DNA from: Escherichia coli O157:H7
GTDB lineage: Bacteria; Pseudomonadota; Gammaproteobacteria; Enterobacterales; Enterobacteriaceae
Assembly (NCBI RefSeq): GCF_013167455.1
Contig: NZ_CP038328.1
DNA: 64,000 bases
Reading direction: 5' to 3' (one strand)
The notes beneath the pieces were generated by a model. That model made no database searches, was not told where the DNA came from, and saw only the letters and a program-made list of their open reading frames with translations. The position numbers and the translations under genes were made by a program. Positions 61,816 to 62,365 of this stretch are shown here, in pieces (within the stretch, counting starts at the first letter, position 1; each line of letters opens with the position of its first letter).

Positions 61816-62022
61816 GGTAGCAATGGCGGGTTAACTTTTCGTAAAATGAAATTAATTCTCGGTACGGCATGTAAAACGCGGCACCTCGTATGCAAGAACG
61901 TGCCGCGGTTGGCTGGTAAGCTTTTCGATAGTGCGAGTATCTAATGATTTCCAGCCGGAACTGATTCTATTGGAAAGAAATCATGGGCGCCAGATTGATT
62001 AGTTATAGATTTTTACTGTGGC

Positions 62023-62071
62023 AAAAATGGGACAAAAGGCCGCAAAAGGGGCAAAAATGGGGCAAAAAAAG
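62023..62071. repeat. Helically phased A-tract array (five CAAAA(A) tracts at 9-11 bp spacing); predicted intrinsically bent DNA
   Basis: A-tracts begin at 62023, 62034, 62044, 62053 and 62064, separated by G-rich spacers. Confidence 0.7.
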
Positions 62072-62365
62072 TGTAGATTATTGTGCTTTATTGTAGTTGT
62101 TAATCCTGCCTAACATATTGAAAAACATAAAAGTTATTGTTCGTCAGATAGTTGCGGTTTTTACTCTGACTTGTTCAGGTTGTATTGTTCTTTCTTGCTA
62201 ATTTCTTGATTTTGCGACATTTAAAAGCGACTCAATTCGTTATATGGCATCAGAAGAGTATGCGTCATGCCGGAACGCCCAGCATAAGAAATCTGATATA
62301 AAAACTGTGGCGTGTATGGTACGGATTAGAGGGGAAAATGTCAGCACATTTGCGAAATGAATCAA

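What the first reader, a model, noticed from the sequence alone, without database searches (positions are those of the whole stretch)
62018..62075. Helically phased A-tract array near the right prophage boundary
Five CAAAA(A) tracts at 9-11 bp spacing with G-rich spacers should produce strongly curved DNA. It lies in the 580-bp gap between the last effector gene and uspF. Possible roles are a nucleoid-protein or integrase-arm binding region, a promoter UP-like element, or a remnant of the attachment region.
Basis: seen in the sequence. Interest (0 to 1): 0.4.

Follow-up and report, generated by a model that had tools for sequence, protein, structure and literature searches.

The report
Integrase arm-binding sites of Rac-type attP
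The phased A-tract array is real and predicted to be strongly curved, but it is most likely the cluster of integrase "arm" binding sites in the attachment site of a Rac/Sp10-type prophage that inserts into the ttcA gene: an ordinary part of phage integration machinery that has not been annotated for this integrase family.

Summary
Observation confirmed. Five GGGGCAAAA-like units lie at 62018-62075, spaced 11, 10, 9 and 11 bp. It is the only such array in the window, and none appeared in 200 Markov simulations. My wedge-model calculation predicts a bend of about 90 degrees over 60 bp, the largest in the 64 kb.

The array sits 95-152 bp to the phage side of the 26-bp crossover core (62171-196) of a ttcA-integrating prophage. 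This is the attR "P arm", about 90% identical to the right junction of K-12 Rac.

The same motif occurs twice, on the same strand and 11 bp apart, in the other arm, between the phage-supplied ttcA start codon and the intR stop codon. An excised attP junction carrying both arms exists in IMG/VR.

IntR has an N-terminal arm-binding domain (PF12167). Phages whose integrases are only about 43% identical carry TGGGGCA(A/T) pairs in both arms.

A published gel-shift assay found that the excisionase XisR does not bind a fragment containing the array.

Best reading: these are arm-type integrase sites, and the curvature is a by-product that may be exploited. The UP-element and coding-sequence readings are not supported. 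Binding by Int is inferred, not shown.

In this window the cognate integrase is absent, because the left end of the prophage lies at ynfA. This is a new member of a known kind, of modest interest.

The parts
62018..62075 (+). Array of five tandem GGGGCAAAA-like units, read as candidate arm-type binding sites for the IntR-type integrase on the P arm. By comparison with relatives, it is probably two pairs about 30 bp apart plus a degenerate middle unit (CCGCAAAAGG).
   Evidence: reality and statistics; conserved in 11 diverged attR arms, with copy number 2, 4, 5 or 6 changing in whole units; same motif in the P' arm; motif in the attP of related integrases.
62078..62096 (+). Two TTATTGT(G/A) direct repeats 10 bp apart, directly beside the array and conserved in all arms. 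Candidate accessory-protein site (Xis?); function unknown.
   Evidence: conserved columns; in K-12-type attP an 11-bp perfect inverted partner, TTATCGTAGTT, overlaps the int stop codon in the P' arm.
62111..62123 (+). IHF-like site TAACATATTGAAA, one mismatch to YAANNNNTTGATW, lying between the array and the core.
   Evidence: TAAC..ATTGAAAAA conserved in all 11 arms. The consensus is as quoted in PMC8407004. Binding was not tested.
62171..62196 (.). 26-bp identity segment (core) TTGTTCAGGTTGTATTGTTCTTTCTT, shared by attL, attR and attB. The crossover must lie within it.
62171..62220 (-). Orphaned native 5' end of ttcA (K-12 'ttcC'): ATG at 62220-62218, MSQNQEISKKEQYNLN..., cut by the prophage insertion.
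   Evidence: Liu et al. 2015 (PMC4632033).
62316..62344 (-). Promoter-like site CTGACA-17-TACCAT upstream of the orphaned ttcA start; probably the native ttcA promoter. It is the only promoter-like site in the gap.
61873..61907 (-). Hairpin: stem 61877-84 / 61900-07, conserved loop, then TTTT on the minus strand. It is terminator-like for transcription leaving int across attP, and marks the outer edge of the attP region.
   Evidence: stem covaries and the loop TCTTGCATAC is conserved in Rac, O157, ETEC and CharmingMan-type phages.

Best explanation
The array is the P-arm cluster of arm-type binding sites for the heterobivalent tyrosine integrase of Rac/Sp10/CP-933R-type prophages (IntR; IntBPP-1 subgroup; arm-binding domain PF12167). 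These prophages integrate into the 5' end of ttcA.

In the circular phage the order is: terminator hairpin, [GGGGCAAAA x5], TTATTGT repeats, IHF-like site, 26-bp core, IHF site H', phage-borne ttcA start, [GGGGCAAA x2], int stop.

Inferred mechanism, by analogy with lambda: the N-terminal domains of Int protomers bind these arm sites while their catalytic domains bind the core. IHF-induced bends, possibly helped by the intrinsic bend of the phased A-tracts, fold the arms back onto the core. Different subsets of sites would serve integration and excision.

The A-tract phasing follows from a 9-bp motif containing A4-7 being repeated once per helical turn, so that all Int N-domains sit on one face of the DNA.

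Shown here: location in the attR P arm; the motif on both arms in the same orientation; conservation across attP sites of homologous integrases; presence of an arm-binding domain; predicted curvature.

Inferred: that Int, rather than another protein, binds the motif, and which copies are used.
For: (1) Position. Window 62171-62395 matches uninterrupted ttcA-uspF DNA in prophage-free genomes, and 62010-62395 matches the K-12 Rac right end at about 90%.
(2) Conservation. The units and their register are kept in 11 attR arms whose flanks diverge to about 75-80% identity. Copy number changes only in whole units.
(3) Both arms. K-12 and O157 attL carry AAATGGGGCAAATTGGGGGCAAACTTTGCAA in the 51 bp between the ttcA ATG and the intR stop, on the same strand as the array. 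This is the top direct-repeat family in the reconstructed attP.
(4) An excised attP junction exists. IMG/VR contig L047 reads int, P' pair, core, P array. Sp10 circularises and integrates into K-12 at the Rac attR (PMC2669165).
(5) IntR residues 5-69 match Arm-DNA-bind_2 (PF12167) at E = 4e-26.
(6) Family-wide. Phage CharmingMan (Int 43% identical) has three TTTTGCCCCA/ATGCCCCA pairs, one at the int 3' end and two 186-250 bp downstream. Klebsiella phage 2 LV-2017 has the pair at its int 3' end.
(7) A scan of IMG/VR for the pair found at least 120 loci. In 94 a homologous integrase gene (52-98% identical) is in the same locus; in nearly all of these the pair lies at its 3' end in sense orientation (L141 and L187 are exceptions). 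The remaining 26 include P arms at the other prophage end with 2-5 copies.
(8) IHF binds in vivo between the core and the P' sites at Rac attL (PMC8407004), which is the lambda-like core-H'-P' layout.
(9) XisR shifted a probe spanning array plus core, but not a probe that also contains the whole array and ends at the core (PMC4632033; primers mapped).
Against: No direct binding or mutational data for IntR and this motif were found in the searchable literature.

Int and the DUF1233 excisionase always travel together in the loci examined, so co-occurrence cannot separate Int sites from Xis sites.

Five uninterrupted tandem copies is unlike lambda's P arm, where P1 and P2 are separated. It resembles the RDF arrays of L5, P2 and KplE1 (my knowledge).

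The single published EMSA is low-resolution, and its implication that XisR needs core or host-side DNA is odd.

Two of the five units (GTGGCAAAA and CCGCAAAAG) are imperfect.
Confidence: 0.72

Rival explanations
1. The array is the binding platform for the excisionase XisR (DUF1233). It would bind cooperatively head-to-tail, one monomer per helical turn, and bend the P arm to favour excision, as RDF arrays do in L5, P2 and KplE1.
For: Tandem direct repeats at about 10-11 bp on the P arm are the classic RDF layout (my knowledge). XisR binds a 294-bp attR fragment that contains the array (PMC4632033). XisR-type RDFs accompany every related integrase examined.
Against: The same motif occurs in the P' arm next to int (family-wide), where RDFs normally do not bind. 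XisR did not shift the AttM probe, which contains the entire array and the rest of the P arm. A separate conserved direct repeat (TTATTGT x2, 62078-62096) is available as a Xis site.
Confidence: 0.13
2. The array is primarily a structural element. Intrinsically curved DNA would either recruit a nucleoid protein (H-NS, Fis) or replace a protein-induced bend in the intasome, with the sequence between the A-tracts unimportant.
For: The predicted 60-bp bend of about 90 degrees is the largest in the window, and Rac-type arms range 78-129 degrees. GGGCAAAAATGGGGC fits the Fis G(-7)/C(+7), Y(-4)/R(+4) pattern with an A/T centre (read from the sequence; consensus from my knowledge). P arms of relatives are also moderately curved, at 45-76 degrees.
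Against: The G-rich part (GGGGC) is at least as conserved as the A-tract, and it recurs in relatives as TGGGGCAT without an A-tract. The P' pair is only weakly curved, at 25 degrees in CharmingMan. Curvature follows automatically when an A-tract-containing motif is spaced one turn apart.
Confidence: 0.1
3. The array is a promoter UP-like element, or it is part of a small protein-coding gene. PGAP annotates a 57-aa hypothetical protein across it in some genomes.
For: Some RefSeq genomes carry a 'hypothetical protein' over the array. A-rich tracts can act as UP elements (my knowledge).
Against: No promoter-like hexamer pair lies adjacent on either strand. The only one in the gap is the native ttcA promoter, 250 bp away and pointing through the array. 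The ORF uses different start codons in O157 and REL606, and its repetitive QKWGK/QKGQK peptide is simply the translated repeat. Variants with 4 and 6 copies differ by indels of one 11-bp unit, which shift the frame.
Confidence: 0.03

Closest known systems
Arm-type Int binding sites of phage lambda attP (P1, P2, P'1-P'3) with IHF sites H1, H2 and H'
   Same: A heterobivalent tyrosine integrase with an N-terminal arm-binding domain. A short motif unrelated to the core is repeated on both arms within about 150 bp of the crossover. Copies in a cluster sit about one helical turn apart. An IHF site lies between the core and the P' sites, with binding shown in vivo at Rac attL (PMC8407004). The attP is about 260 bp long, and a terminator-like hairpin lies beyond the P arm, where lambda has tI/sib (lambda details from my knowledge; PMC4880445 gives the architecture).
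   Different: The motif differs: GGGGCAAAA / TGGGGCA(A/T) against lambda's C/AAGTCACTAT. The arm-binding domain family differs: PF12167 (IntBPP-1 subgroup) against PF09003. The P arm carries five contiguous copies rather than two separated ones. The copies contain phased A-tracts that predict a strong intrinsic bend. The crossover lies inside a protein-coding gene whose 5' end the phage replaces.
Arm repeats of Tn916-type integrases (IntTn916 subgroup, described as closely related to IntBPP-1 in PMC8138268)
   Same: A three-strand/one-helix arm-binding domain that recognises short direct repeats flanking the element ends (domain description from PMC8138268). I also saw TTTGCCCCAAAAATGCCCCAAA directly after the stop codon of two Firmicutes-type phage integrases.
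   Different: IntR is a proteobacterial phage integrase. Tn916 sites and spacing are different sequences (my knowledge). No homology of the sites was tested.
Tandem RDF-binding arrays (L5 Xis X1-X4, P2 Cox boxes, KplE1 TorI sites)
   Same: Four to six direct repeats at about 10-11 bp spacing on one arm, producing or stabilising a DNA bend (my knowledge).
   Different: Here the motif is also present in the int-proximal arm, and the cognate RDF failed to bind a fragment containing the array.
Phased A-tract curved DNA (kinetoplast-type bends; curved upstream promoter regions)
   Same: A4-7 tracts with a mean spacing of 10.25 bp, a phase coherence of 0.94, and a high predicted curvature.
   Different: The spacers are conserved G-rich sequence, and the whole unit behaves as a protein-recognition motif. 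No promoter is attached.

Membership tests
Arm-type sites of a heterobivalent tyrosine integrase attP | The cognate integrase has an N-terminal arm-binding domain. | tested here: met
   IntR residues 5-69 match Arm-DNA-bind_2 (PF12167), E = 4e-26. It falls in the IntBPP-1 subgroup per PMC8138268.
Arm-type sites of a heterobivalent tyrosine integrase attP | The motif differs from the core and is repeated on both arms (P and P') near the crossover. | tested here: met
   P arm: five copies 95-152 bp from the core. P' arm: two copies (plus a weak third) 48-70 bp beyond the core, on the same strand.
Arm-type sites of a heterobivalent tyrosine integrase attP | The motif is conserved in the attP sites of homologous integrases that use other cores. 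| tested here: met
   CharmingMan and Klebsiella phage 2 LV-2017 (Int 42-44% identical) and at least 120 IMG/VR loci carry TTTGCCCCA-N3-ATGCCCCA pairs, either at the int 3' end or, in loci without an int match, in stretches that include the far prophage end.
Arm-type sites of a heterobivalent tyrosine integrase attP | Architectural bend sites (IHF) lie between the arm sites and the core. | tested here: inconclusive
   P' side: the consensus site shows an in vivo IHF peak at Rac attL (PMC8407004). P side: only a conserved one-mismatch consensus at 62111-62123; binding unknown.
Arm-type sites of a heterobivalent tyrosine integrase attP | The Int N-domain binds the motif directly, and the sites are required for recombination. 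| not testable with these tools
   No published footprint or mutagenesis was found.
RDF (excisionase) binding array | The repeats are confined to the P arm and are bound by the cognate RDF. | tested here: not met
   The motif is also in the P' arm. In a published EMSA, XisR did not shift the AttM probe, which contains the array.
Intrinsically curved phased A-tract DNA | A-tracts of at least 4 bp are in phase with the helical repeat and curvature is predicted. | tested here: met
   Spacings of 11, 10, 9 and 11 bp. Bend of 90.7 degrees over 60 bp, the maximum of the window. Gel anomaly not testable.
Promoter UP element | An A/T-rich block lies at -40 to -60 of a sigma-70 promoter. | tested here: not met
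   No promoter-like site lies within range on either strand.
Protein-coding sequence or degraded gene | A conserved reading frame, or similarity to a known gene. | tested here: not met
   Whole-unit indels of 11 bp, different start codons and a repeat-derived peptide. No annotated gene lies under the match in most genomes.

The most novel reading that the evidence does not exclude
TGGGGCA(A/T), spaced 11 bp apart in pairs on both arms, is the general arm-site code of the whole IntBPP-1 (PF12167) integrase subgroup. That subgroup includes many enterobacterial prophages (reportedly also Stx-phage and Gifsy-2-type integrases) and perhaps some Firmicutes phage integrases. In the Rac/Sp10 lineage the P-arm sites have fused into an A-tract array. 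Its intrinsic bend of about 90 degrees would replace a protein-induced bend, and its unit copy number (2, 4, 5 or 6 in natural variants) would tune integration and excision efficiency.
Probability: 0.25. Interest if true: 0.5.

Novelty: new member of a known kind. Interest (0 to 1): 0.3.

Why it matters
The result turns an unannotated 580-bp gap at a prophage edge into a readable attP arm: arm sites, an IHF-like site, the core, the orphaned ttcA start and a terminator.

If the assignment holds, it gives a simple sequence signature, pairs of TGGGGCA(A/T) 11 bp apart. That signature could mark the ends of prophages using this integrase subgroup and help delimit them precisely.

It also suggests a test of whether intrinsic DNA curvature can stand in for an accessory bending protein in an intasome.

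It does not reveal a new kind of system.

Tried and rejected
- Rfam scan of 60000-64000 found nothing at the array. The only nearby hit was a weak CssrB match to the hairpin at 61838-61907.
- I looked for the partner attL and integrase inside the window and found none. There is no second core copy. The left end is ynfA plus a degraded integrase of the same family at 16517-17223, and no motif cluster occurs elsewhere in the window.
- 'Phage' database records matching the arm (Rac-SA53, SPF_0923, vB_EcoS-683R6) turned out to be prophage excerpts with host flanks, not free attP.
- Of the 80 IntR loci returned from IMG/VR, nearly all stop at the int gene or run on into ttcA. Only L047 carries the intact attP junction.
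- I tried to separate Int from Xis by looking for related integrases paired with a different RDF family. All upstream RDFs were DUF1233, so this was uninformative.
- The PDB sequence search matched only catalytic domains, with no solved arm-binding domain of this family.
- Literature searches for the arm sites of Rac, Stx-phage or PF12167 integrases, and for the motif itself, found no description.
- The UP-element and coding readings were rejected.

Full report
**1. The observation**

The sequence at 62018-62075 reads GTGGCAAAAAT GGGACAAAAGG CCGCAAAAGG GGCAAAAATG GGGCAAAAAAAG. The C that precedes each A-tract lies at 62022, 62033, 62043, 62052 and 62063. The spacings are therefore 11, 10, 9 and 11 bp. 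Tandem Repeats Finder reports 62020-62068, period 10, 4.7 copies, consensus GGCAAAAATGG.

It is the only chain of five phased A4+ tracts in the 64-kb window; the runner-up has three. None of 200 Markov-1 simulations of the window reached five, and 0.5% reached four.

I implemented the Bolshoy-Trifonov dinucleotide wedge model myself, with parameters recalled from the literature. The bend across 60 bp centred on 62044 is 90.7 degrees, the highest value in the window. The window mean is 26 degrees and the 99.9th percentile is 81 degrees.

The array lies in the 580-bp gap between the last of three DUF1076 (NleG-like) ORFs and uspF.

**2. Where it sits**

A megablast of the gap against 5,426 complete E. 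coli genomes splits it into three layers.
- 62171-62395 matches nearly all genomes. In prophage-free strains this stretch is the 5' end of ttcA plus the ttcA-uspF spacer.
- 62010-62395 matches K-12 at about 90%. This is the right end of the Rac prophage.
- The full 580 bp is found in only 426 genomes.

Aligning the K-12 attL, the K-12 attR and an empty attB defines a 26-bp identity segment, TTGTTCAGGTTGTATTGTTCTTTCTT. In the window it is at 62171-62196. It lies inside ttcA codons 9-17. The orphaned native ATG is on the minus strand at 62220-62218.

The array is therefore on the phage side of attR, 95-152 bp from the core. In lambda terms this is the P arm, the arm distal to int.

The window itself does not hold the cognate integrase. 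Its left part is mlc-clcB-dmsD-ynfEFGH-ynfDC-speG-ynfBA, followed by a degraded integrase of the same family. In strain CDC#03-98 that ynfA junction lies 433 kb from an identical attR, and that attR is partnered normally with dbpA-ttcA-intR-xisR. The prophage in the window is therefore a rearranged hybrid. This copy of attR is probably orphaned (inference).

**3. Conservation**

I aligned eleven attR arms taken from across the identity range: O157, O111, K-12, B, ETEC, Rac-SA53, a sitABCD-linked remnant and others. The units and their register are retained while the flanks diverge. Copy number changes only by whole units: 4 copies in L009, 6 in L013, and only the last 2 in L014.

Two further blocks between the array and the core are invariant or nearly so.
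- TTATYGTRG-N-TTATTGT, at window 62078-62096.
- TAAC..ATTGAAAAA, at window 62111-62123. This is one mismatch from the IHF consensus.

About 18% of complete E. coli genomes (973 of 5,426) carry this arm.

**4. The same motif is in the other arm**

In K-12 and O157 attL, the 51 bp between the phage-supplied ttcA ATG and the intR stop codon read TATTTCAGTTCTCTGGTACTAAATGGGGCAAATTGGGGGCAAACTTTGCAA. This contains two GGGGCAAA copies 11 bp apart plus a weak third. They are on the same strand as the array.

One IMG/VR contig, L047, carries the excised junction: int, P' pair, phage ttcA start, core, P arm with the array. In this reconstructed attP the top direct-repeat family is exactly the P' pair plus the P array.

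Asadulghani et al. showed that Sp10 circularises in Sakai. They also showed that it integrates into K-12 using the Rac attR as its target (PMC2669165). The system is therefore active in nature.

**5. Which protein?**

IntR has an N-terminal Arm-DNA-bind_2 domain (PF12167, E = 4e-26) in addition to the catalytic domain. Smyshlyaev et al. place such proteins in the IntBPP-1 subgroup of arm-binding integrases (PMC8138268). Integrases of this type are expected to need arm sites, and the GGGGCAAA family is the strongest direct-repeat family shared by the two arms.

Phage CharmingMan has an Int 43% identical to IntR, with a well-conserved N-domain. It has three pairs of TTTTGCCCCA / ATGCCCCA, which is the reverse complement of TGGGGCAAAA / TGGGGCAT. 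The members of each pair are 11 bp apart. One pair is at the int 3' end, and two pairs lie 186 and 227 bp further on. Klebsiella phage 2 LV-2017 has the pair at its int 3' end.

I scanned IMG/VR for TTTGCCCCANNNATGCCCCA.
- In 94 loci a homologous integrase gene (52-98% identical to the CharmingMan Int) is present. In nearly all of these the pair lies at its 3' end in sense orientation; L141 and L187 are exceptions.
- In the other 26 loci there is no int. Several of these are P arms at the other prophage end with 2-5 copies, often arranged as two pairs 30-41 bp apart.
- Four contigs carry both ends, with the motif on the same strand.

Read against this pattern, the Rac array is two pairs 30 bp apart. 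The best copies are e and d, then b with a weaker a. A degenerate filler unit c lies between them.

IHF gives an in vivo peak at the consensus site TAATTTGTTGATT, between the core and the P' pair at Rac attL (PMC8407004). This reproduces the lambda layout of core, H', then P' sites.

**6. Why not Xis?**

XisR is a DUF1233 protein. Every related integrase I examined has a DUF1233 RDF upstream, so co-occurrence cannot separate Int from Xis.

Two arguments favour Int.
- The motif is in both arms, including the int-proximal one.
- In the only published assay, XisR shifted a 294-bp probe (L002:2993-3286) but not a 291-bp probe (L002:2872-3162). I mapped the primers, and both probes contain the whole array.

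That EMSA is coarse, and its implication that XisR needs core or host-side DNA is odd. I therefore keep Xis as a rival at about 0.13. The conserved TTATTGT repeats beside the array are a better Xis candidate, but this is untested.

**7. Other readings**

No promoter-like site adjoins the array. The only one in the gap is the presumed native ttcA promoter at 62344-62316. The UP-element idea is therefore not supported.

PGAP annotates a 57-aa hypothetical protein across the array in some genomes. Its QKWGK/QKGQK/KRGKK peptide is the translated repeat. The O157 version uses a different start codon, and 11-bp unit indels break the frame.

A purely structural or nucleoid-protein role is possible as an accessory function. 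Rac-type arrays are predicted to bend 78-129 degrees. The P arms of relatives bend 45-76 degrees, and a P' pair bends 25 degrees. However, the G-rich half of the unit is at least as conserved as the A-tract. Relatives also replace AAAA with ATGG in half of their copies.

**8. Comparison and novelty**

Functionally this is the counterpart of the lambda arm-type sites P1/P2 and P'1-3 together with their IHF sites. It differs in four ways:
- the motif;
- the arm-binding-domain family;
- five contiguous P-arm units;
- built-in curvature.

I found no paper describing arm sites for Rac, Sp10 or any PF12167 integrase in the searchable library. Subscription-journal literature is not covered by that library.

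I rate it a new member of a known kind and of modest interest. The useful by-product is a simple signature for the ends of prophages that use this integrase subgroup.

**9. Confidence**

- The array is part of the attP/attR P arm of a ttcA-integrating phage: about 0.97.
- It is the set of Int arm-type sites: about 0.72.

Direct binding and site usage remain to be shown.

Noticed in passing
window 61873-61907 (also L002 ~2934-2975, L003, L014, L047 1913-1953, L095 3411-3455): A hairpin whose stem differs between phages through compensatory changes (CGCGGCAC/GTGCCGCG; CCGCAGCACGT/ACGTG-CTGCGG; CCGCCGCCTGT/ACAGGCGGCGG), while its loop TCTTGCATAC is invariant. On the minus strand it is followed by TTTT. 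In attP it lies about 300 bp downstream of int, beyond the P arm, so it may be a tI/sib-like terminator or retroregulator. It gives a weak Rfam hit to the 3' hairpin of Shigella sRNA CssrB (25 bits against a gathering score of 76).
   Followed up: partly
window 1-17500 versus 62171-64000: The left flank of the prophage is mlc...ynfE-ynfA, which is at about 1.66 Mb in K-12. The right flank is uspF-ompN, at about 1.43 Mb in K-12. The left-end integrase (fragments at 16517-16723 and 17053-17223, minus strand) is a truncated PF12167-type Int. In strain CDC#03-98 the two junctions are 433 kb apart. The window's prophage therefore looks like a hybrid created by recombination between two lambdoid prophages, and this attR has no cognate int or attL beside it.
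   Followed up: partly
window 62078-62096 and K-12 attP (L047 1611-1621 / 1804-1814): The sequence TTATCGTAGTT overlaps the intR stop codon in the P' arm. It has a perfect 11-bp inverted partner directly beside the array in the P arm; the O157 versions match at 9 of 11 positions. This may be another protein site, perhaps for Xis. It is unexplained.
   Followed up: no
L002 3141-3162 (K-12) = window 62148-62169: In K-12-type arms an inverted copy of the motif (GGGCAAAAATC on the minus strand) abuts the core on the P side. It is degenerate in the O157 arm (CAGAGTAAAAACC). Its significance is unknown.
   Followed up: no
L100 78-97 and L125 65-84 (IMG/VR contigs): Two Firmicutes-type phage integrases (380-385 aa, no PF12167 hit, catalytic domain only about 21% identical to IntR) have TTTGCCCCAAAAATGCCCCAAA immediately after their stop codon. 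This is the same paired motif as in the enterobacterial family. It may be a shared arm-site code or a coincidence.
   Followed up: partly
window 62971-64000: ompN is interrupted: the ORF runs only 62971-63738, and the identical region in CDC#03-98 is annotated as a frameshifted pseudogene.
   Followed up: no
L007 (record ON032529.1, 'Salmonella phage SPF_0923'): This 'phage genome' record contains sitABC followed by a Rac-type P arm with the array, the core, uspF, ompN and nifJ. It is E. coli-like chromosomal DNA with a prophage remnant, not a free phage. Several INPHARED records matching this arm are such excerpts.
   Followed up: no
PMC4632033 EMSA probes mapped on L002: The published positive (AttR) and negative (AttM) probes for XisR share the whole P arm from the array to the core. 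They differ only in core plus host-side DNA as against far-upstream DNA. Taken at face value, XisR would need core or B' sequence, which is unusual for an excisionase and worth re-testing.
   Followed up: partly
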